Source: a virus (Duplodnaviria; Heunggongvirae; Uroviricota; Caudoviricetes). Taken from it: a stretch of DNA of 64,000 nt. The translations under genes were made by a program, and so were the position numbers. Of this stretch, positions 11,011 through 43,943 are shown piece after piece; positions within the stretch are counted from its first letter, which is position 1, and the number at the start of each line of letters is the position of its first letter. The notes under the pieces are model-generated. The model had not been told where the DNA came from. It did no database searches and saw only the letters and a program-made list of their open reading frames with translations. The stretch spans positions 105,848-169,847 of IMG/VR virus record IMGVR_UViG_3300020048_000021; one strand, given 5' to 3'.

Positions 11011-11394
11011 TTAGTTTCTTTTCTTATATTTACTATATTTTTTACCGTAATACCAATCGTTGATCAAATAATCATCTATATTATATTTAGATACATATTT
11101 GGTTTCTTTAAGATCATCATTTGATATCCATTTGTGATATGTTGCTGGATTTATGGCACGACCGGATTTTATTGCTGCTTTCATATCTCTAGATCGATTA
11201 TCGCTAAATTGTTTTTTAAATTCTATATCAGCTTCTAATTTATGTTTAAATGCTAAATTTCCTGCTTCTGATATGTCTTTTTGTTGATTTAAACGATGAC
11301 CTTGATTTGGTAAAGAGTTAATATAAGAAAATGAACCACCCCCACCCCCGCATTCAATCACCTTATTTATCATTTTTAAGCGCATTGTTGTCAA
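11011..11394 (-). CDS. hypothetical protein (isolated minus-strand gene)
   Basis: 127 aa ORF, GGGGG glycine run, basic C-terminus. Confidence 0.35.
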   Translation of the reverse strand: MTTMRLKMINKVIECGGGGGSFSYINSLPNQGHRLNQQKDISEAGNLAFKHKLEADIEFKKQFSDNRSRDMKAAIKSGRAINPATYHKWISNDDLKETKYVSKYNIDDYLINDWYYGKKYSKYKKRN

Positions 11395-11446
11395 AGATCG
11401 ACCACGAGTTTATCGATGTTATAGTGTGTTTAAAAATTGTAAATAT

Positions 11447-17961: not shown

Positions 17962-17990
17962 TTGACAATAAATCAGTAGTACGCTATAAT
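17962..17990 (+). promoter_or_regulatory. sigma70-type promoter TTGACAATAAATC-17-TATAAT driving the third tRNA/structured-RNA cluster
   Basis: TTGACA 17962-17967, TATAAT 17985-17990. Confidence 0.65.
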
Positions 17991-18029
17991 AGAAGTTCAG
18001 TAAGTAAATCGTTCTTTAAAAATCAGACG

Positions 18030-18110
18030 CAATATTGAAGTACTCTTAAACATTGGTCTTGGTCGTTACCAGCCTAAGGCGAAAACGGCGACGAGAGTAT
18101 TTCAATATTG
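18030..18110 (+). repeat. inverted-repeat hairpin element (arms CAATATTGAAGTACT / AGTATTTCAATATTG) enclosing about 50 nt
   Basis: arms read from sequence, 14 of 15 complementary. Confidence 0.6.
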
Positions 18111-18184
18111 TGTTAATCACAATAGTAGTACGTTGACTCTATGATACTGGGAAGTATCGACCTGCTGGGAAGCACTTCTGAGAG

Positions 18185-18268
18185 TCATCATTATGAAGTA
18201 CATTTGCACTCCTTTTCTCAAAGATCCGATTGGCGCATAATCAGAGCGAGTGTACTTCATTATGATGA
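18185..18268 (+). repeat. inverted-repeat hairpin element (arms TCATCATTATGAAGTACAT / GTGTACTTCATTATGATGA) enclosing about 47 nt
   Basis: 19-nt arms with one mismatch and one G-U pair. Confidence 0.6.
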
Positions 18269-18281
18269 TTAATAGTACAAT

Positions 18282-18356
18282 ACAGCTATCGTCTATCGGT
18301 TAGGACGCTAGGTTTTCATCCTAGTAAGCGGGGTTCGATTCCCCGTAGCTGTACCA
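18282..18356 (+). tRNA. tRNA-Glu (UUC)
   Basis: acceptor ACAGCTA/TAGCTGT, D GTCT/GGAC, anticodon stem CTAGG/CCTAG loop TTTTCAT, T-arm CGGGG-TTCGATT-CCCCG, CCA. Confidence 0.8.
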
Positions 18357-18451
18357 ATAATAGTACATTTTAGGCTGATGACGGCAATCGTCAGAAGGTC
18401 TGTATTTTACCATCATGATTCGAGTATCTTGCCGGAGAAACAAATTGTGAT

Positions 18452-18522
18452 GAAGCATTCGTATAGCCGGAAGTACGCCGTCAATTGAGACGGAAACGTG
18501 GGTTCGACTCCTACATGCTTGT
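18452..18522 (+). pseudogene. aberrant tRNA-like element (6-nt or 8-nt anticodon loop, 1-72 G-G mismatch, no CCA)
   Basis: acceptor GAAGCAT/ATGCTTG, D GTAT/GTAC with AGCCGGAA loop, T-arm GTGGG-TTCGACT-CCTAC; anticodon region CCGTC-AATTGA-GACGG; flanked by long-range pairing AGGCTGATGACG (18375) with CGTCAGCCT (18528). Confidence 0.45.
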
Positions 18523-18554
18523 TACGTAAACGTCAGCCTAAAGTGTATTATAAT

Positions 18555-18629
18555 GCTGCATTCGACTTCTGGTGAGGTCATCACCCTTTCAAGGTGACCA
18601 GACGGGATCGTAACCCGTATGCAGTACCA
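18555..18629 (+). tRNA. tRNA-Glu (UUC), second copy with non-canonical T-loop ATCGTAA
   Basis: acceptor GCTGCAT/ATGCAGT, D GACT/GGTC loop TCTGGTGA, anticodon stem TCACC/GGTGA loop CTTTCAA, T-arm ACGGG-ATCGTAA-CCCGT, CCA. Confidence 0.65.
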
Positions 18630-18638
18630 AGTTTCAAT

Positions 18639-18715
18639 GGTGTAGATAGCTTAATTGGTAAAGCCCCGGATTGTGAAGCCGGCGGATGCGGATTCAAATT
18701 CCGTTCTACACCCCA
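18639..18715 (+). tRNA. tRNA-His (GUG) with encoded G-1
   Basis: extra 5' G pairing with discriminator C73, acceptor GTGTAGA/TCTACAC, anticodon loop TTGTGAA, T-arm GCGGA-TTCAAAT-TCCGT, CCA. Confidence 0.75.
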
Positions 18716-18900
18716 AAGTACATAAGATAGCGACCAGTAAGGCACGTGACTGAAAAATCGCCGTAAAGTCGAGGTGGGGCCGGTAGATAACCTCGTGAAA
18801 CACCGGCCAGAAATTTAGTAACCATAGTCGGCATGTGTTCCCACCGTGCATCAACCGACTTAAAATAAAGCTAGGACGCATGCTGTCGTTAACGGTGGGG
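18716..18900 (+). ncRNA. structured non-coding region with nested and interleaved helices (candidate ncRNA)
   Basis: GAGGT(18764)/ACCTC(18790) interleaved with GGCCGGT(18772)/ACCGGCC(18810), giving pseudoknot topology; long-range CCCACCGT(18851)/ACGGTGGG(18888); no ORF. Confidence 0.35.
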
Positions 18901-18998
18901 CCATATTGAAGTACATTACATACACAATCGGGTAGACATGACAGTATTGCTTGAGATACAGCAGTGTAACATCATGGTAGTGTATTTCAATATGGTAA
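18901..18998 (+). repeat. inverted-repeat hairpin element (CCATATTGAAGTACA / TGTATTTCAATATGG) enclosing about 62 nt
   Basis: 15-bp stem with one G-U wobble. Confidence 0.6.
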
Positions 18999-19166
18999 TC
19001 ACATAATGGTGAGACAGGAGACAAGGTGAGATTAACTTCTCAGTGAGCGTATCTCTCTATCCAACGCAGATAGGTCGGTTGAGTTCGATTCTCAGCAGTG
19101 ATTACTATATTGAAACACATTTGCGGGTATTCTGAAAGGACTAGTCCCTAACAATGTGACGACCAA

Positions 19167-19346
19167 GTGTATTTCAATATGGTATCGCTACTTAGTTGCA
19201 ATGGTCACACGCCCTTGACTGAGTAGAATGTTACCATATTGAAGTACATTGATGCCTGACTGAAACGGGCATATAGAGTAACTGGCACTAAGAGAGGTTC
19301 GATTCCTCTGACTCTTATTTCAGATCAGTGTATTTCAATATGGTAA
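19167..19346 (+). repeat. three alternating copies of the 19-nt repeat (R 19167-19184, R' 19231-19249, R 19327-19346) enclosing a T-arm-like hairpin AGAGG-TTCGATT-CCTCT
   Basis: sequence read; the central R' can pair with either flanking R. Confidence 0.6.
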
Positions 19347-19391
19347 TTGACTAATTTATGAATAACTACATATATACAATGTGAAATTTAT

Positions 19392-19430: not shown

Positions 19431-19544
19431 ATGAAGAAAATAGCAGCAGTTTTAGCAATCGTATTGTTGAGCGCATTGGGTTTATCAGCTTGTGACAACA
19501 AGGGAATAACAGCACCAACGTACAACAGCAACACAGCTAACTAA
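19431..19544 (+). CDS. small lipoprotein (37 aa)
   Basis: MKKIAAVLAIVLLSALGLSACDNKG..., lipobox LSAC, RBS AAGGAAAATAATCATG; below ORF-track length cutoff. Confidence 0.55.
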   Translation: MKKIAAVLAIVLLSALGLSACDNKGITAPTYNSNTAN

Positions 19545-19562
19545 GTTTTTGTTTACATTGTA

Positions 19563-19588
19563 GTATAACTTGAGGGAACATTGTTCCC
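19563..19588 (+). terminator. rho-independent terminator
   Basis: GAGGGAAC-ATT-GTTCCCTC hairpin followed by ATTTTATT. Confidence 0.65.
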
Positions 19589-19641
19589 TCATTTTATTAG
19601 ACACTAGCTTAGTATTTAAAATAATACAAGGAACAAAGTAA

Positions 19642-21033
19642 TTGGCTAATTTAATTTTATGGAACTGTCTCAATGTAGATCATGCATCGATTCGACCTGC
19701 TGGGCCACATCAATTGGCTCATTGGTTACAATTGAACGGTTATACCGTTAAAGTTATAGATTTTTGTCACTCAATGAGTACCGATAATCTGGTCAATATT
19801 ACATTAAAGCATATTGATCTTAATACAATCGGAATAGGAGTTAGTACTACATTTTGGAATAATACCAATAATATTGATCCTAAATCTTTATCAGTAACAA
19901 TGGAACCAGAATGGGTAATAAATGCTAGAGATAGATTAAGTCATTTAAATGTAAAATGGATATTGGGCGGAGCTAATAGTACAAATGTATTCAGTTACGA
20001 TTGGAAAATATTACATGGTCACGCAGAAGATTCATTATTACAATTTATGGATGAACATTCGTCTAAAATTAGCGTAAGACCTCAATTTGATATTAAAAAT
20101 CTAGAAAATTGTTTTTACGATGATTTAGCTATACAAAGTACAGAAGTATTACCAATAGAATTAAGTAGAGGATGTCAGTTCAAATGTAAATTTTGTCGAT
20201 ATCCATTATTGGGAAAGAAAAAGAATACATATATACGAAATTATAAACTTATAGAAACTGAGTTTGTTGAAAATTATGAACGTTATGGAATCACAAAGTA
20301 TTTTTTCTTAGATGATACCGTAAATGAAAGTATTGAAAAGATAGAGGCGTTGGCCGAAATGGCACAACGATTGCCATTCAAACTTAATTGGTTTGGATAT
20401 AATAGATTAGACTTGATAGGCACACGACCATCTACTATTGAGTTATTGAAACATAGTGGATTAAAAAGTGCTTTTTTTGGAATAGAAAGCTTTCATTCTA
20501 AGGCCAGCAAGATTGTGGGCAAAGGATGGAATGGAGTTCATGGTAAAGAATTTTTATTAGAGTTACGTCAGAAATGGGGTAATGACATAAGTTTTCATCT
20601 GGCGTTTATAGCTGGACTTACTGGCGAAACATCTGAAAATTTAGATGATACTCAACGTTGGTGTATAGATAATAATATTGCTAGTTGGAGATTTTCTGGA
20701 TTGCATATTAGCAAAAGTGAAAATCTTGTTTGGAAAAGTGAATTCGATTTAAATCACGGATTATATGGGTATAAATTTCCATACGATGATAAACCAGAAT
20801 TCTGGACTAATAGTTTATGGACTTCTCAGTCTGCGGCTAGTAAAGCAATTCAATTACTAAAAGATTCACAGAAACATATTAAGCCAGCAGTTTGGTTATT
20901 GGGCGAGTTATCGTCATTGGGATATGATTTAGATCATTTAATGAGTAAGTACAAACATGAACTTGACTGGGACGATATTAAAAATCGTAATAAGATATTT
21001 GTTGAAAAATACGTAACAACTCAATTGAAATAA
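19642..21033 (+). CDS. radical SAM enzyme with N-terminal B12-binding-like domain
   Basis: CxxxCxxC motif in GCQFKCKFCRY; N-terminal Rossmann-like segment typical of class B radical SAM; TTG start with RBS AAGGAACAAAGTAATTG. Confidence 0.65.
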   Translation: MANLILWNCLNVDHASIRPAGPHQLAHWLQLNGYTVKVIDFCHSMSTDNLVNITLKHIDLNTIGIGVSTTFWNNTNNIDPKSLSVTMEPEWVINARDRLSHLNVKWILGGANSTNVFSYDWKILHGHAEDSLLQFMDEHSSKISVRPQFDIKNLENCFYDDLAIQSTEVLPIELSRGCQFKCKFCRYPLLGKKKNTYIRNYKLIETEFVENYERYGITKYFFLDDTVNESIEKIEALAEMAQRLPFKLNWFGYNRLDLIGTRPSTIELLKHSGLKSAFFGIESFHSKASKIVGKGWNGVHGKEFLLELRQKWGNDISFHLAFIAGLTGETSENLDDTQRWCIDNNIASWRFSGLHISKSENLVWKSEFDLNHGLYGYKFPYDDKPEFWTNSLWTSQSAASKAIQLLKDSQKHIKPAVWLLGELSSLGYDLDHLMSKYKHELDWDDIKNRNKIFVEKYVTTQLK

Positions 21034-21041
21034 ATATTATT

Positions 21042-21614
21042 ATGAAAAATATACTATGGTGTCCAATAGATTTGCCCAAGTGTCCGGTTATTCCTAAATT
21101 ACAGCCATCTGTAAAGTGGCACTTTTGGGAATTTGCAAAACTTATTGATAGTCATGAAAATCCTTACGCTATTACTGACTTTACTAAAGAAATAAAAACA
21201 GAATATCCTGAATTAGTAGAATGGTTTAAATTATTTCCGTATACTAGTATACGTAATATTAAATTGAATCATCAACTTACAGCAGTTAAAGCTCATATTG
21301 ACTTTACAAAGCCCGATTTAGATCCTAAGTTACATAAAAACAACGTTGAAAATGAACCATGTGGTTACAGAATTCTTCTTAGTGGTTCGAGAAATAACAA
21401 ACTATATGTAGTTCATAACGGAGAAAAGATATACTGTGAAATGCCAGATGATACCGATACGTATGTGTTAGGTCATACTTGTACATTACACGGAGTAGAT
21501 GATGATATTGATCGATGGACTCTATTCACTCATTTTGAAATAGATTCAGAAAACCATAAATCATTGTTAAATACGTCTTTACAAAAATATTCTAATTATG
21601 CTATAATTCGTTAA
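21042..21614 (+). CDS. hypothetical protein, possible cupin/2OG-Fe(II) oxygenase-like partner of the radical SAM gene
   Basis: 190 aa, HxD (AHIDF) and downstream His plus Asp-rich VDDDID segment; 8-nt gap to upstream gene. Confidence 0.35.
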   Translation: MKNILWCPIDLPKCPVIPKLQPSVKWHFWEFAKLIDSHENPYAITDFTKEIKTEYPELVEWFKLFPYTSIRNIKLNHQLTAVKAHIDFTKPDLDPKLHKNNVENEPCGYRILLSGSRNNKLYVVHNGEKIYCEMPDDTDTYVLGHTCTLHGVDDDIDRWTLFTHFEIDSENHKSLLNTSLQKYSNYAIIR

Positions 21615-21642: not shown

Positions 21643-21671
21643 TTGACAGTAAATCATAATTCAGTTATAAT
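21643..21671 (+). promoter_or_regulatory. sigma70-type promoter TTGACAGTAAATC-17-TATAAT upstream of tRNA-Asp
   Basis: TTGACA 21643-21648, TATAAT 21666-21671. Confidence 0.65.
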
Positions 21672-22005: not shown

Positions 22006-22203
22006 ATGTCAGACACTATTAAATTAATCAATGATCAGATCGAAGCATGGCAAACTGAAGATACAAAGTTTATCTCTGGAAATTCGTCTGCTGGTACTCG
22101 CTCACGTAAAGCGTTGGGTGAACTATCTAAATTGATTAAGATTCGTCGTAATGAAATTACTGCAGAAAAAAACGCTCGTAAAGAAGCTAAAGCAGCAAAG
22201 TAA
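22006..22203 (+). CDS. hypothetical small basic protein
   Basis: 65 aa, lysine/arginine-rich C-terminus, RBS AAGGAATTACAATG. Confidence 0.45.
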   Translation: MSDTIKLINDQIEAWQTEDTKFISGNSSAGTRSRKALGELSKLIKIRRNEITAEKNARKEAKAAK

Positions 22204-22209
22204 AGTTTT

Positions 22210-22390: not shown

Positions 22391-22485
22391 GCTAGATAGC
22401 ACTGGTGTGCGGCTGAATCTTATAAGTTCGGGAGAGTGGTCAGATGGGCTGCAACGGATAGGTTCGAATCCTATATCTAGTACCA
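22391..22485 (+). tRNA. 95-nt tRNA-like gene with Sec-like architecture, anticodon apparently UAU
   Basis: 8-bp acceptor GCTAGATA/TATCTAGT, D-stem GCAC/GTGC with 4-nt loop, GGCTGAA motif, 6-bp anticodon stem CTGAAT/GTTCGG loop CTTATAA, about 26-nt variable region, 4-bp T-stem TAGG/CCTA loop TTCGAAT, CCA. Confidence 0.45.
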
Positions 22486-22578: not shown

Positions 22579-22607
22579 TTGACATTAAATCAAGTTTGCG
22601 CTATAAT
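22579..22607 (+). promoter_or_regulatory. sigma70-type promoter TTGACATTAAATC-17-TATAAT
   Basis: TTGACA 22579-22584, TATAAT 22602-22607. Confidence 0.65.
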
Positions 22608-22748
22608 GTTTTATCAATAGGAGAAGTACAATGAAGTCTAAGATGACCGTACCCAAACGTAACCCCTTCGTTTGTTTGGTACTAAAAAAGACAGGGGCAG
22701 GTAGTCATCGTAAGTCTAACAAGGCTACGAGAAAGCAAGACAAGCAAC

Positions 22749-22822
22749 GGGGGTATAGCTCAATGGTAGAGCATCCGGCTTTTAACCGGTCGACCACGGA
22801 TCGTTACCGTGTGCCCCCACCA
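22749..22822 (+). tRNA. tRNA-Lys (UUU)
   Basis: acceptor GGGGGTA/TGCCCCC, D GCTC/GAGC, anticodon loop CTTTTAA, T-arm CACGG-ATCGTTA-CCGTG (non-canonical T-loop), CCA. Confidence 0.75.
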
Positions 22823-22825
22823 ATG

Positions 22826-22939
22826 TTATCATATTGAAATACATTCAAAGGCTATGTACAAGCCCAGTGGTGGATTCATAGCATCGTGCCAACGATGTTC
22901 ACAGGTTCGATTCCTGTAGAGTGTATTTCAATATGATAA
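22826..22939 (+). repeat. inverted-repeat hairpin element (TTATCATATTGAAATACA / TGTATTTCAATATGATAA) enclosing a 77-nt tRNA-like insert
   Basis: 18-bp stem with a U-G wobble; insert has hairpins GCTATG...CATAGC, CATCGT-GCCA-ACGATG and T-arm ACAGG-TTCGATT-CCTGT; sits exactly between tRNA-Lys and the next tRNA. Confidence 0.6.
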
Positions 22940-22940
22940 T

Positions 22941-23017
22941 GGTGATGTAGCTCAGTTGGTTAGAGCAGGTGCTTCATACGCACAAGGTCAGTGGTTCGAA
23001 TCCACTCTTCACTACCA
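22941..23017 (+). tRNA. tRNA with CAU anticodon (Met or Ile2)
   Basis: acceptor GGTGATG/CTTCACT (one mismatch), D GCTC/GAGC, anticodon loop TTCATAC, T-arm AGTGG-TTCGAAT-CCACT, CCA. Confidence 0.7.
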
Positions 23018-23728: not shown

Positions 23729-24106
23729 ATGGGCTTTGTAATTAAACTTGATAAACTAGAATGGATAGAATCCATTAGAGCGGCTATTCGTGCAGAAGGG
23801 TGGACTGGTACTTCTGGTTGTAAAGAGTGGGCCAAAAAGACCTATGATGCCACTCTGAATTACAATTGCTATGGTAATATGTCTAGCATTAAGTTTAAGA
23901 CAGAAGAGATATGTCAGAAATTTGCTAAAGTATATGAAATTCCATACTTGACCAATGTACAGAAATTACAGGAAGATCACATGTACAAATTGTTGATGAG
24001 TGTGACTGAACTGTTAGAACGACCATCCTCGAATAGTATTGAGATTATTAAATCTGATATACTCAGTGCCATTAACAATATTAAAGCAACCTACGGAGTT
24101 AAATAA
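23729..24106 (+). CDS. hypothetical protein
   Basis: 125 aa ORF. Confidence 0.4.
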   Translation: MGFVIKLDKLEWIESIRAAIRAEGWTGTSGCKEWAKKTYDATLNYNCYGNMSSIKFKTEEICQKFAKVYEIPYLTNVQKLQEDHMYKLLMSVTELLERPSSNSIEIIKSDILSAINNIKATYGVK

Positions 24107-25014
24107 TGAATTCGTTAGAATTAAAAACCTTCGTTGAAGAAAATCCAAAATTGGTTTCTAAGAAGGTAGCAGGAGATGGAATCTACGTACTGAAATACAA
24201 ACGTCGAGTATTCTATGACAAATTGTGGAATGAATTTCTAGAAGAATGTCGTGGTACTATTGTCGATGAAGATTTTAATGTCGTTGCTCGTCCTTTTACA
24301 AAGATATATAATTTTCGAATCGAAGATAAGTCTCCTGTTTTGTCAGATGATACACTTGTTACCGCTTATCGCAAGGTAAATGGTTTCATGGTCGCAGTGA
24401 CTTGGTACAATGATGACATCTTGGTGTCTACCACTGGGTCTACTGATTCGCCCTATGTTGATATGGCACGTGAAATGATGGTGAAAGAACAGCCATGGGT
24501 CAACTGGGTATCTGCTATCAGCATGAATCAGGGTTACACCATGATGTTTGAGTGTGTACATCCCGACGATCCACACATTATCCCAGAACAAACAGGAATG
24601 TATTTTCTGGGTTGGCGTGAGAACACATGGGACTCTAAGGTCGAGGGATTTGGCGGAACAATTCAAGATCACTGGCAAAAGTATGCGGTGAGTTTCTTGC
24701 GTTGTAAGTGCGCTGAATCTTTTCAGACTTCTATCGATGAACTGGTAGAAATGTCTAAGACTGTTAAGCACGAGGGTTTCGTTTTCTATACAAAAGATGA
24801 AGTGTCGGCAAAGATCAAGTCGCCGTACTATTTGATCAAGAAGTTTGTAGCTCGTAACCCACGTACTGACAAGTTGATGAGAGCAGATATCAAACAATCA
24901 ATAGATGAAGAATACTATCCATTGATTGATCATATTCAAGCAAACATTGTTGAGTATACTGCCCTAGACGAGCAAGCTCGATTGTCATGGGTTCGTGAAT
25001 TTTTGGAGCGATAG
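24106..25014 (+). CDS. rnlA: RNA ligase 1 (T4 gp63 / RnlA-like)
   Basis: segment ECRGTIVDEDFNVVARPFTKIYNF aligns with T4 Rnl1 [28 protein letters not shown]; adjacent to other RNA-repair genes. Confidence 0.65.
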   Translation: MNSLELKTFVEENPKLVSKKVAGDGIYVLKYKRRVFYDKLWNEFLEECRGTIVDEDFNVVARPFTKIYNFRIEDKSPVLSDDTLVTAYRKVNGFMVAVTWYNDDILVSTTGSTDSPYVDMAREMMVKEQPWVNWVSAISMNQGYTMMFECVHPDDPHIIPEQTGMYFLGWRENTWDSKVEGFGGTIQDHWQKYAVSFLRCKCAESFQTSIDELVEMSKTVKHEGFVFYTKDEVSAKIKSPYYLIKKFVARNPRTDKLMRADIKQSIDEEYYPLIDHIQANIVEYTALDEQARLSWVREFLER

Positions 25015-41804: not shown

Positions 41805-42836
41805 ATGAGAAAGATGGCAACAATTCGTCGTATTGACGAACTAAACCCTATTGAGGGTGCTGATAAAATTGAAGTGGCTACCGTTGGTGGATGGAAAGTC
41901 GTGTGTCAGAAAGGATTGTATGTAGTTGGCGATCTAGCGGTATATTGTGAGATTGATAGTTTCATTCCCACTGCCATTGCTCCATTCCTGACTCGCGACG
42001 GGCATTACCCCAAGACGTATGAAGGTATTGAAGGTGAACGTCTTCGCACTATCAAGTTGCGTGGGCAAATCTCTCAAGGATTGTTACTGCCCTTGAGTGT
42101 TCTTGCTGTTAATACTTCTTCAGGTGATTATCTTGGTGACTGGGAACAGTTTGAGAATGAAGATGTAAGTGAGAATCTTGGCATCGTCAAATACGAACCG
42201 CCAATGTCAGCACAACTTGCTGGTGTCGCTCGTGGTAATTTCCCAAGTCAGATTCCAAAGACTGATCAAGAACGTTGTCAGAATCTGAAGCGTGAGATTT
42301 CTCAAGCTGGTGATACTACGTTCGAGGTTACTGAAAAGTTAGACGGTTCATCAATGACTGTATATCTGATTGATGGTGTCTTTGGTGTATGTTCACGCAA
42401 TCTTGATCTGAAAGAAAGTGAAGGAAATACTTTTTGGAAAGTTGCTCGTGAGTTGGATCTTGAAACTAAGATGCGGACTATGGGTGATAACTTTGCTATT
42501 CAAGGTGAACTAATTGGCGAAGGAATTCAAAAGAATATCTACGAAATCAAAGGTCATAAATTCATGGTATTCGATATCTATGATATTGTCGTGGGTGATT
42601 ATATGATTCCAGACATGGTTCGTACTATCTGCAAAATGCAGAACTTGAACCACTGTCCTGTTATTCTGCCTCACGGTTCAGTAAATCATACTATCGATGA
42701 ACTGCTTGAATTAGCAGAAGGAAAGTCTGAGCTGAATGTCAAGACTGAGCGTGAAGGTTTAGTATTCAAGGCAGTGAATGGTAGTTTTACATTCAAGGCT
42801 ATCTCAAATAAATTCTTATTAAAGCACGGGGATTAA
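41805..42836 (+). CDS. ATP-dependent RNA ligase (KxDG nucleotidyltransferase superfamily, Rnl2-like)
   Basis: motif I EKLDGSSMTVY; N-terminal OB-like region; RBS AAGGAAATATTATG. Confidence 0.55.
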   Translation: MRKMATIRRIDELNPIEGADKIEVATVGGWKVVCQKGLYVVGDLAVYCEIDSFIPTAIAPFLTRDGHYPKTYEGIEGERLRTIKLRGQISQGLLLPLSVLAVNTSSGDYLGDWEQFENEDVSENLGIVKYEPPMSAQLAGVARGNFPSQIPKTDQERCQNLKREISQAGDTTFEVTEKLDGSSMTVYLIDGVFGVCSRNLDLKESEGNTFWKVARELDLETKMRTMGDNFAIQGELIGEGIQKNIYEIKGHKFMVFDIYDIVVGDYMIPDMVRTICKMQNLNHCPVILPHGSVNHTIDELLELAEGKSELNVKTEREGLVFKAVNGSFTFKAISNKFLLKHGD

Positions 42837-43511: not shown

Positions 43512-43943
43512 ATGAGACTAATCTTGATTCGTGGATTGCCGGGAAGTGGCAAGTCTACTCTTGCTCTTCAATTGATGTCATCAAATGGATTAACTTGCGC
43601 TCAACATTTTGAAGCAGATCAATATTTTATGGAAGATGGCGAATATAATTTCAACGTCGACCATTTACATTTGGCTCATAAATGGTGTCAAGATAAGACT
43701 CGTGATGCACTACAAGCTAACTGCGATGTGATCGTGTCTAACACATTCACAACCGCAAAAGAACTAAAATCGTATTTTAAAATTGCAGCAGAATACGATA
43801 TAGTACCTCAAGTAATTCTATGTCAGGGTTCTTGGGAAAGTGTACATAATGTACCAACTGAGGTTTTAGTCAAAATGAAAAATCGTTTTGATTATGATAT
43901 CACACGTTTATTTGAAACGTTAATTAACGATAAAGGAAAATAA
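43512..43943 (+). CDS. P-loop polynucleotide 5'-kinase-like protein (kinase domain only)
   Basis: LILIRGLPGSGKSTLA Walker A resembling T4 Pnk ILTIGCPGSGKSTWA; only 143 aa, no phosphatase domain. Confidence 0.55.
   Translation: MRLILIRGLPGSGKSTLALQLMSSNGLTCAQHFEADQYFMEDGEYNFNVDHLHLAHKWCQDKTRDALQANCDVIVSNTFTTAKELKSYFKIAAEYDIVPQVILCQGSWESVHNVPTEVLVKMKNRFDYDITRLFETLINDKGK

What the first reader, a model, noticed from the sequence alone, without database searches (positions are those of the whole stretch)
18030..19346. Family of long inverted repeats (core GTGTATTTCAATATGGTAA) forming 15-19 bp stems with G-U wobbles in the tRNA region
Six R copies and five R' (reverse-complement) copies occur at 18030/18096, 18185/18250, 18901/18981, 19167, 19231 and 19327, with one more pair at 22826/22921. 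Paired arms differ at positions that give G-U or U-G pairs rather than mismatches, which argues for selection on RNA secondary structure rather than DNA terminal repeats. Each stem encloses 45-80 nt of small hairpins, several with a canonical T-arm (GGTTCGATTCC). Elements abut tRNA genes: the 22826-22939 element fills the gap between tRNA-Lys and the next tRNA exactly. The short sequence AGTACAT recurs just 3' of tRNAs (18363, 18718). One reading is that these are RNase III-type processing hairpins for the polycistronic tRNA precursor. Another is that they are a new family of tRNA-like structured RNAs.
Basis: seen in the sequence. Interest (0 to 1): 0.75.

Follow-up and report, generated by a model that had tools for sequence, protein, structure and literature searches.

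The report
Conserved RNA helix family in phage tRNA islands
The repeats are the two strands of a conserved RNA stem of about 20 base pairs that frames many different small RNAs inside a phage's tRNA gene clusters; this family has no match in Rfam and, in related phages, sits directly after the gene for a Ro60-like RNA-binding protein.

Summary
The arms 5'-(R)CCAUAUUGAAGUACAUU and AGUGUAUUUCAAUAUGGUAA-3' pair into 19-24 bp helices at seven places in the window. A variant helix lies at 18357-18554.

The same helix occurs about 85 times in roughly 45 uncultivated phage contigs. It is always co-oriented with the tRNAs and is absent from isolate bacterial genomes.

It is an RNA structure on the tRNA-sense strand:
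- 97% of arm positions pair.
- 14 of 19 pairs show compensatory changes.
- There are 165 G.U against 11 A.C.

The interior is hypervariable, with at least 40 unrelated types of 2-120 nt, and it can be absent. Some interiors are tRNA-like. So the helix is the constant functional part.

No Rfam family matches it, including tRNA, YrlA and Y RNA.

Related phages encode a DUF2828/vWA protein whose AlphaFold model matches Ro60 over its full length. In 35 of 79 loci, a helix of this family starts 26-84 nt after that gene.

Best reading (about 0.4): Y-RNA-like small RNAs whose conserved helix is the handle for the phage Ro60-like protein. Main rival (about 0.3): RNase III-type processing or punctuation hairpins.

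The window's 64 kb holds no Ro-like gene. Function is inferred, not shown.

The parts
17962..17990 (+). Early sigma-70-type promoter (TTGACA-17-TATAAT) driving the non-coding array. Identical copies lie at 21643-21671 and 22579-22607.
   Evidence: (family D4)
18026..18114 (+). Element E1. A 22-bp helix (AAUAUUGAAGUAC variant) closes a 45-nt interior. It is the first structure of the transcript. The promoter-plus-E1 cassette recurs in many contigs.
   Evidence: (z -7.1)
18185..18268 (+). Element E2. A variant helix (AUUAUGAAGUACA / UGUACUUCAUUAU) with a 32-nt interior, 13 nt upstream of tRNA-Glu.
   Evidence: I1; z -6.7
18357..18554 (+). Variant long helix (AUAAUAGUACAUUUUAGGCUGA / UCAGCCUAAAGUGUAUUAUAAU). 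It shares the inner box GUACAUU/AGUGUAU. It encloses a 154-nt tRNA-like RNA, which includes the ARAGORN 'tRNA-???' at 18452-18522 with a T-arm.
   Evidence: (I5)
18900..18996 (+). Element E3. A canonical 20-bp helix with a 57-nt interior. Its 5' arm starts at the GCCA end of the preceding hairpin module.
   Evidence: (z -5.1)
18996..19108 (+). tRNA-like RNA lying between an R arm and the next L arm. It has a 7-bp acceptor-like stem UAAUCAC/GUGAUUA, a T-arm at 19080-19096 and the end ACUA. Neither ARAGORN nor Rfam calls it. It is conserved in L006 and L028.
   Evidence: (I4)
19103..19184 (+). Element E4. Its 5' arm is degenerate (3 mismatches) and its interior is 40 nt. The same interior occurs in L028.
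   Evidence: I7; z -3.5
19230..19347 (+). Element E5. A canonical 24-bp helix with a 70-nt interior that contains a T-arm (AGAGGUUCGAUUCCUCU). The closest relative has a different interior between the same arms.
   Evidence: I2; z -6.7
22824..22941 (+). Element E7. A 23-bp helix closing a 'type A' tRNA-like interior: hairpin, GUGGUGGA linker, variable hairpin, T-arm. It exactly fills the gap between tRNA-Lys and tRNA-Met.
   Evidence: I3; z -7.7
11372..11437 (+). Possible divergent member. A 17-bp AU-rich helix with the inner box GCAUU/AGUGUG, 10 nt upstream of the first tRNA cluster.
   Evidence: Membership not tested further.

Best explanation
Shown:
- The inverted repeats are the 5' and 3' strands of a conserved, AU-rich RNA helix of about 19-24 bp.
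- Its consensus is (R)CCAUAUUGAAGUACAUU ... AGUGUAUUUCAAUAUGGUAA, with fixed G.U and U.G wobbles.
- The helix closes a hypervariable interior of 2-120 nt.
- The units lie on the tRNA-sense strand within the tRNA clusters. Their 5' arms often begin at an NCCA end, and their 3' arms often lie 0-13 nt before a tRNA.

Inferred:
- The units lie downstream of consensus sigma-70-type early promoters and would be co-transcribed with the tRNAs.
- Ordinary tRNA processing (RNase P plus 3' trimming) would release them as small RNAs capped by a long terminal helix.
- The helix is a common handle that docks a phage Ro60-like protein (DUF2828 plus vWA). That makes these RNAs Y-RNA analogues.
- The variable interiors, some of them tRNA mimics, would be the effector or cargo modules. 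This would operate in the RNA-repair and tRNA context of the phage.

I am about 0.9 confident that the helix family is a selected RNA structure. The Ro-partner step carries the 0.4.
For: Structure:
- On 80 distinct arm pairs, 97.0% of cells pair. Shuffles give 89.4%, and slid registers give 28-49%.
- 14 of 19 pairs have changes on both sides. There are 102 compensatory cells against 24.5 in shuffles (0 of 500 shuffles reach this).
- There are 165 G.U against 11 A.C.
- tRNAs are 451 sense against 1 antisense.

The helix is the constant part and the interior is variable or dispensable:
- At least 40 unrelated interior types.
- Plain hairpins with 2-3 nt loops in L141, L145, L146, L152, L153 and L156-L158.
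- The helix keeps a preferred sequence and fixed wobble positions, but covaries in distant relatives.

Ro link:
- The commonest large ORF in related loci is DUF2828+DUF7788.
- This is PHROG 850, 'RNA-binding protein'.
- Mycobacteriophage records name it 'Ro-like RNA binding protein'.
- The AlphaFold model has pLDDT 90.3.
- Its ten best PDB matches are all Ro60/TROVE, full length, with E from 4.5e-8 to 1.4e-6.
- In 35 of 79 loci anchored on that gene, a helix of this family starts 26-84 nt after the end of the protein match (34 of them at 26-40 nt). The expectation per window from the rest of the same loci is 0.003. In the loci examined it is followed after a few nt by a tRNA.
- Canonical elements and the Ro-like gene share a contig in L008, L015 and L032.

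Y-RNA parallels (PMC4201824):
- A terminal stem plus variable modules.
- tRNA-like domains. Here 'type A' shows covarying hairpins and a T-arm.
- Several paralogues per genome.
- Genes encoded beside Ro60.

RNA-repair context in the window:
- Rnl1-like ligase at 24106-25014.
- A second RNA ligase at 41805-42836.
- A P-loop kinase at 43512-43943.
Against: - The window has no Ro-like gene in its 64 kb (tblastn; profile HMM with E up to 10).
- Within 10 kb of the Rnl1-like ligase, the Ro-like gene and family helices are nearly mutually exclusive: 18 loci have the gene only, 8 have helices only, and 1 has both.
- The 35 adjacent cases come from one clade with 69-100% protein identity. They may reflect one ancestral arrangement and not repeated association.
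- The known Ro-binding motif (GNCGAAN0-1G or GGUCCGA with a bulge) is absent.
- Rfam YrlA and Y_RNA models do not match.
- Up to about 13 copies per genome is more than for known Y RNAs.
- No binding or expression data exist.
Confidence: 0.4

Rival explanations
1. The helices are RNase III-type processing or punctuation hairpins. A host dsRNA endonuclease would cut them to separate cistrons (mRNA from tRNA, tRNA from ncRNA) or to excise the interior RNA, as with rRNA processing stalks and T7 early RNase III sites. No dedicated protein partner is involved.
For: - The helices are uninterrupted and 19-24 bp long, placed between cistrons of polycistronic transcripts.
- The interior is dispensable.
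- The inner box reads GURYAU on both strands, with G.U at both ends and a central C-G. This is dyad symmetry, as expected for a homodimeric enzyme.
- E. coli RNase III sites have the two base pairs between the cuts paired, usually with at least one G-C (PMC6212723).
Against: - Most tRNA-tRNA and gene-tRNA junctions in the same phages lack the helix.
- RNase III does not need this degree of sequence or wobble conservation.
- Interiors are themselves conserved and structured across phages.
- The plain-hairpin versions have only 15-17 bp.
- No RNase III signature is encoded in the window or in the loci held (L001-L044).
- The cleavage register could not be scored.
Confidence: 0.3
2. The arms act mainly at the DNA level as about 20-nt homology linkers, analogous to PeSLs. 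They would promote recombinational shuffling, gain and loss of small RNA modules in a hyperplastic region. The RNA helix would be a tolerated by-product.
For: - Against the closest relative (about 90% identity in genes), the array is heavily rearranged. Modules are swapped, moved or missing at arm boundaries.
- Modules are mosaic among contigs.
- PeSL-mediated shuffling in T4-type phages is a precedent (PMC2839356).
Against: - The strand-specific G.U versus A.C bias and the compensatory changes show selection on the transcript's helix.
- L and R arms are in inverted orientation, so L-by-R exchange would invert segments.
- Single isolated copies are conserved at one position across many phages.
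Confidence: 0.12
3. The elements are miniature transposable elements (MITE- or Correia-like) with terminal inverted repeats, or decayed tRNA genes with leader-trailer pairing and no present function.
For: - Multicopy inverted repeats of about 20 nt.
- tRNA-like remnants in some interiors.
- Genuine tRNAs with extended leader-trailer helices occur in related loci.
Against: - No target-site duplications.
- Interiors are unrelated between copies, unlike MITE families.
- No transposase is evident.
- Conservation is strand-asymmetric.
- Interior types are conserved across phages, with covariation.
Confidence: 0.05

Closest known systems
Bacterial and phage Y RNAs (YrlA, and D. radiodurans Yrn1) with Ro60/Rsr
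   Same: - Small RNAs closed by a long stem with a conserved sequence.
- Variable internal modules, some mimicking tRNA with a T-arm.
- Type A has the tRNA order with the closing stem in the acceptor position, as described for Yrn1.
- Several paralogues per genome.
- In related phages, a member is encoded immediately 3' of a Ro60-fold protein gene and near RNA-repair genes.
   Different: - No match to Rfam YrlA or Y_RNA.
- No bulged helix and no GNCGAA or GGUCCGA motif.
- The protein is DUF2828/DUF7788, which resembles Ro60 only at the fold level.
- Far more copies per genome.
- The interior can be absent.
- The RNAs are embedded in tRNA operons.
- No Ro-like gene lies in this window.
RNase III processing stalks (rRNA operons, T7 early mRNA R-sites)
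   Same: Long helices formed by sequences flanking an RNA, repeated with similar sequence within one phage transcript and located at cistron boundaries.
   Different: - These are perfect AU-rich helices with fixed wobbles, with no internal loop.
- The interiors are diverse small RNAs.
- The helix is not present at most junctions.
- Cleavage is not demonstrated.
PeSLs of T4-type phages (promoter-early stem-loops)
   Same: - Short conserved repeated cassettes in hyperplastic regions of T4-like genomes.
- They mark the boundaries of shuffled modules.
- E1 is coupled to an early promoter.
   Different: - PeSL stems are short, GC-rich terminators that flank ORFans.
- Here the helices are about 20 bp, AU-rich, enclose RNA modules, are not terminators, and show RNA-level selection.
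T4 stable RNAs species 1 and 2 (rnaC, rnaD)
   Same: Non-tRNA stable RNAs encoded at the end of a phage tRNA cluster. rnaC has a T-arm.
   Different: There is no long conserved closing helix and no sequence similarity.

Membership tests
Y RNA / YrlA (Rfam RF00019, RF02553) | Scores at or above the family covariance-model threshold | tested here: not met
   Only tRNA hits appear at gathering threshold. One off-register YrlA hit scored 23.5 bits against a threshold of 69. No hit on the element alone.
Y RNA / YrlA (Rfam RF00019, RF02553) | Long stem closing the RNA, with variable internal modules | tested here: met
   The helix is supported by covariation. Interiors are hypervariable. The true 5' and 3' ends are not mapped.
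Y RNA / YrlA (Rfam RF00019, RF02553) | Ro60-binding motif (GNCGAAN0-1G, or GGUCCGA with a bulged helix) | tested here: not met
   The arm reads AUAUUGAAG and has no bulge.
Y RNA / YrlA (Rfam RF00019, RF02553) | Encoded next to a Ro60 orthologue | tested here: inconclusive
   Met in 35 of 79 related loci, where the protein has a Ro60 fold. Not met in this window. Near the ligase the two are anticorrelated.
Y RNA / YrlA (Rfam RF00019, RF02553) | Physically bound by Ro60 | not testable with these tools
   Needs RIP, CLIP or EMSA.
RNase III substrate | About 20 bp or more of dsRNA | tested here: met
   19-24 bp in the window. The plain-hairpin relatives have only 15-17 bp.
RNase III substrate | Staggered double cleavage leaving a 2-nt 3' overhang, dependent on rnc | not testable with these tools
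   Only a compatible dyad-symmetric box with a central C-G pair was seen.
MITE / transposon | Target-site duplication, and an interior shared between copies | tested here: not met
   Flanks show no direct repeats. Interiors are unrelated. Conservation is strand-asymmetric.
tRNA | Recognised by the tRNA covariance model or ARAGORN | tested here: not met
   The interiors of E5 and E7 and the segment 18996-19108 are not called. Only the T-arm is canonical.
PeSL | Early promoter plus a short GC-rich terminator stem-loop flanking ORFs | tested here: not met
   Only E1 adjoins a promoter. The stems are AU-rich and long, with no U-tail.

The most novel reading that the evidence does not exclude
These helix-capped RNAs may be the natural RNA partners of the DUF2828 Ro60-like protein family. 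That family is present in more than 700 cultured phages, including FelixO1-like, KVP40-like, Listeria, Staphylococcus, Campylobacter and jumbo phages. Together they would form a phage RNP in which one conserved helix presents a rapidly diversifying set of modules, including tRNA mimics. Such an RNP could serve tRNA or RNA surveillance and repair, or act as a decoy against tRNA-targeting host defences.
Probability: 0.35. Interest if true: 0.85.

Novelty: new variant of a known kind. Interest (0 to 1): 0.72.

Why it matters
Ro60-like genes are common in tRNA-rich phages, but their RNA ligands and role are unknown. A sequence-defined helix family tied to that gene gives a directly testable candidate ligand.

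The family also explains much of the 'empty' non-coding DNA in phage tRNA islands. It reveals dozens of conserved small structured RNAs of unknown function.

Even if the helix is only a processing signal, it is a compact, portable and evolutionarily validated scaffold for expressing small RNAs from tRNA operons. It also marks a hot spot of modular genome shuffling.

Tried and rejected
- Rfam, at gathering and E-value thresholds, on the window, on single elements and on Ro-adjacent regions. Only tRNAs were found.
- GenBank phages by megablast and blastn. No relative of the region.
- T4 rnaC and rnaD. Not similar.
- Literature search for the arm sequences. Nothing.
- Isolate bacterial genomes. 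Only chance 18-mer hits; the 4 true elements are all on MAG contigs.
- Phage-encoded RNase III, TROVE or dsRBD in the window. None.
- Sequence and profile search of the DUF2828 protein against the PDB. No Ro60 hit.
- First AlphaFold run on a shallow alignment. It failed with pLDDT 51; a 101-sequence alignment was needed.
- ArfA-like idea for the ORF at 22632. Not supported by Pfam.
- Extending the window through exact-protein look-ups. Only 7-9 kb contigs were found, or none.
- The RNase III position weight matrix from PMC6212723. It was unavailable because no supplement is held.
- A promoter reading of the arms (TTGAAG ... CAAAAT). Rejected because the spacing is broken by interiors of 30-120 nt.

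Full report
**The observation.**
The window carries 32 ARAGORN tRNA calls, all on the + strand. It also carries three identical consensus early promoters at 17962, 21643 and 22579.

Between the first promoter and 19347, and again between tRNA-Lys and tRNA-Met, two 17-20-nt sequences alternate. L is (R)CCATATTGAAGTACATT. R is AGTGTATTTCAATATGGTAA.

They pair at six places, plus a variant:
- 18026-18114
- 18185-18268
- 18900-18996
- 19103-19184
- 19230-19347
- 22824-22941
- variant: 18357-18554

Each pair folds as a long helix with a z-score between -3.5 and -7.7. All 11 pattern hits with at most 2 mismatches, and 13 of the 29 hits overall, lie in these two places. Chance predicts 8.2 hits.

**Distribution.**
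No GenBank phage resembles the region. The exact 19-mer of R occurs in 29 IMG/VR stretches. In nearly all of them the L partner lies 30-120 nt upstream, and most loci hold several copies.

I collected more than 80 distinct elements. All loci are tRNA-rich, and the elements share the tRNA strand: 451 sense tRNAs against 1 antisense.

In 185,579 reference genomes the motif with its partner occurs only on four MAG contigs. It is in no isolate genome. An rIIA homologue shows that the window comes from a large T4-like myovirus.

**It is an RNA helix.**
Across 80 distinct arm pairs:

| Measure | Observed | Control |
|---|---|---|
| Cells paired | 97.0% | 89.4% in shuffles; 28-49% in slid registers |
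| Pairs with changes on both sides | 14 of 19 | – |
| Compensatory cells | 102 | 24.5 in shuffles (0 of 500 reach this) |

Non-Watson-Crick cells are 165 G.U against 11 A.C. The complementary strand therefore could not form the helix. In the window only one element survives a pairing scan on the - strand.

Two wobbles sit at fixed positions: G.U in GAAG/UUUC and U.G in ACAUU/AGUGU. The first 73 elements all came from loci picked through an exact R arm. In that set the eight central pairs looked invariant. In relatives retrieved through a protein anchor they covary:
- CAUAUAAAAAUACA / UGUAUUUUUAUAUG
- CCAUAUCUAAACACAUUA / UAGUGUGUUUAGAUAUGG
- AUUCUAAAGCACAUU / AGUGUGUUUUAGAAU

Selection is therefore on the helix, with a strong sequence preference. 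The most conserved parts are the outer CCAUAU/AUAUGG and the inner ACAUU/AGUGU. The inner box reads GURYAU on both strands, which is a dyad-symmetric duplex.

**The interior.**
Interiors fall into at least 40 unrelated types of 31-120 nt. Each type is conserved at 75-100% between contigs.

About one in seven is a tRNA-like 'type A', which includes the window element at 22826-22939. It consists of a covarying first hairpin, a GUGGUGGA linker, a variable second hairpin, and a canonical T-arm abutting the 3' strand of the helix. No interior is recognised as tRNA, tmRNA or YrlA.

In another clade the same helix closes only 2-3 nt. The interior is therefore dispensable and the helix is the constant functional unit.

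**Context of the arms.**
- 56% of 5' arms begin with (A/G/U)CCA.
- In 8 cases that CCA is the 3' end of a called tRNA.
- In others it follows a GC hairpin.
- 17 of 84 3' arms are followed within 20 nt by a tRNA.

RNase P acting on the downstream tRNA and 3' trimming of the upstream tRNA would therefore release a small RNA capped by the helix. This is inferred.

Arms can also pair with the other neighbour, as in the minimum-free-energy fold of the whole transcript. But pairing extends inward from L-X-R and not outward, so L-X-R is the selected unit.

**Plasticity.**
Against the closest relative, at about 90% identity in genes, the array is rearranged. Modules are swapped, moved or missing, with breakpoints at the arms. 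A 2.3-kb ORF block is inserted in the window. This resembles PeSL-mediated shuffling. It cannot be the primary function, however, given the strand-specific RNA selection.

**The Ro60-like link.**
Neither the window nor the array-flanking loci held at that point (L001-L044) encode RNase III or TROVE.

The commonest large ORF in related loci is a 470-aa DUF2828+DUF7788 protein. Annotation and structure both point to Ro60:
- It is PHROG 850, 'RNA-binding protein'.
- Mycobacteriophage records name it 'Ro-like RNA binding protein', and it is present in 702 cultured phages.
- In FelixO1-like and Synechococcus phages it sits in or at the head of the tRNA cluster.
- Sequence searches do not reach Ro60.
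- An AlphaFold model built on 101 sequences has pLDDT 90.3.
- Its ten best PDB matches are all Ro60/TROVE over the full length, with E from 4.5e-8 to 1.4e-6 and TM 0.40-0.61.

In 80 loci anchored on this gene, the usual order is: stop codon, short GC hairpin, a helix of this family, 3-6 nt, then a tRNA. The helix is mostly CAUUUUGAAGUAUAYU / AGUAUAYUUCAAAAUG, with covarying variants.

A strict detector finds this arrangement in 35 of 79 loci. The helix starts 26-40 nt after the end of the protein match in 34 of them, and 84 nt after it in one. The rest of those loci predict 0.003 per window. Canonical elements and the gene share a contig in L008, L015 and L032. Adjacency to Ro60 is the criterion by which bacterial Y RNAs were found (PMC4201824).

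**Caveats.**
- The 35 cases come from one clade, so they may be one ancestral arrangement.
- The window has no Ro-like gene.
- Near the Rnl1-like ligase, the gene and the helices are almost mutually exclusive: 18 loci with the gene only, 8 with helices only, 1 with both.
- The known Ro-binding motif and bulge are absent, and Rfam YrlA does not match even next to the gene.

**Verdict.**
The finding is a genuine family of phage RNA elements with no match in Rfam.

The best-supported mechanism (about 0.4) is a Y-RNA-like design. A conserved helix acts as handle for a Ro60-like protein and presents variable modules. The RNAs are expressed from tRNA operons, in a genome that also encodes two RNA ligases and a P-loop kinase.

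The main rival (about 0.3) is an RNase III-type processing helix. It fits the helix length, the dyad box and the rule that the base pairs between the cuts include a G-C. It does not explain the rarity of the helix at tRNA junctions or the conserved interiors.

DNA-level linker or mobile-element readings are minor.

Noticed in passing
window 22007-22204: A small ORF with an Hc1 histone H1-like domain (Pfam E 1.3e-11) sits inside the tRNA island.
   Followed up: partly
window 22632-22838: An ORF downstream of the promoter at 22579 has no stop codon before tRNA-Lys (starts 22749). RNase P processing would leave a non-stop mRNA. An ArfA-like idea was not supported by Pfam.
   Followed up: partly
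window 18452-18522, 18555-18629, 22391-22485: ARAGORN calls 'tRNA-???', a second 'tRNA-Glu' with T-loop AUCGUAA, and a 95-nt 'tRNA-Ile(tat)'. The Rfam tRNA model does not recognise any of them. The segment 18555-18629 is 98-100% identical in three other contigs.
   Followed up: partly
window 18716-18900 and 19188-19226: Conserved non-tRNA modules. A 108-nt module follows tRNA-His. A hairpin ends in GCCA. A further hairpin has an invariant loop GCAAUGGUCACACGCCCUUG that is found in 7 IMG/VR contigs.
   Followed up: partly
L001, L005, L016, L017, L018, L025 (for example L016 7364-7578 in sense coordinates): A second long-stem family (GUUGUUAUUAGUUGUAUUGUUUUG / CGAGACAAUACAACUAAUGACAAU, 24 bp) encloses about 167 nt. 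It is analogous to window 18357-18554.
   Followed up: no
L010/L022 tRNA-Arg, L015 tRNA-His, L021 tRNA-Met: Genuine tRNAs whose 5' leader and 3' trailer pair for 11-14 bp beyond the acceptor stem. In L022 the pairing uses the same GUGUAU/GUACAU box with the strands swapped.
   Followed up: no
window 19432-21614: A lipoprotein-like mini-ORF, a radical-SAM ORF (19642-21033) and an unknown ORF form a 2.3-kb insertion into the RNA array, relative to the closest relative L058.
   Followed up: partly
L016 8133-8581 (- strand): ARAGORN predicts a permuted tmRNA with a long tag inside the element array. This is unverified and may be a false positive.
   Followed up: no
L125 3920-4281 (Mycobacterium phage Appletree2): The 360-nt non-coding stretch after the 'Ro-like RNA binding protein' gene holds a T-arm-containing tRNA-like RNA and a thrice-repeated CAGCAAUYAACU motif. 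Rfam YrlA does not call it.
   Followed up: no
L045-L124: Within 10 kb of the Rnl1-like ligase, the Ro-like gene and helix arrays almost never co-occur (18 against 8 against 1). It looks as if they replace each other at this position. Unexplained.
   Followed up: partly
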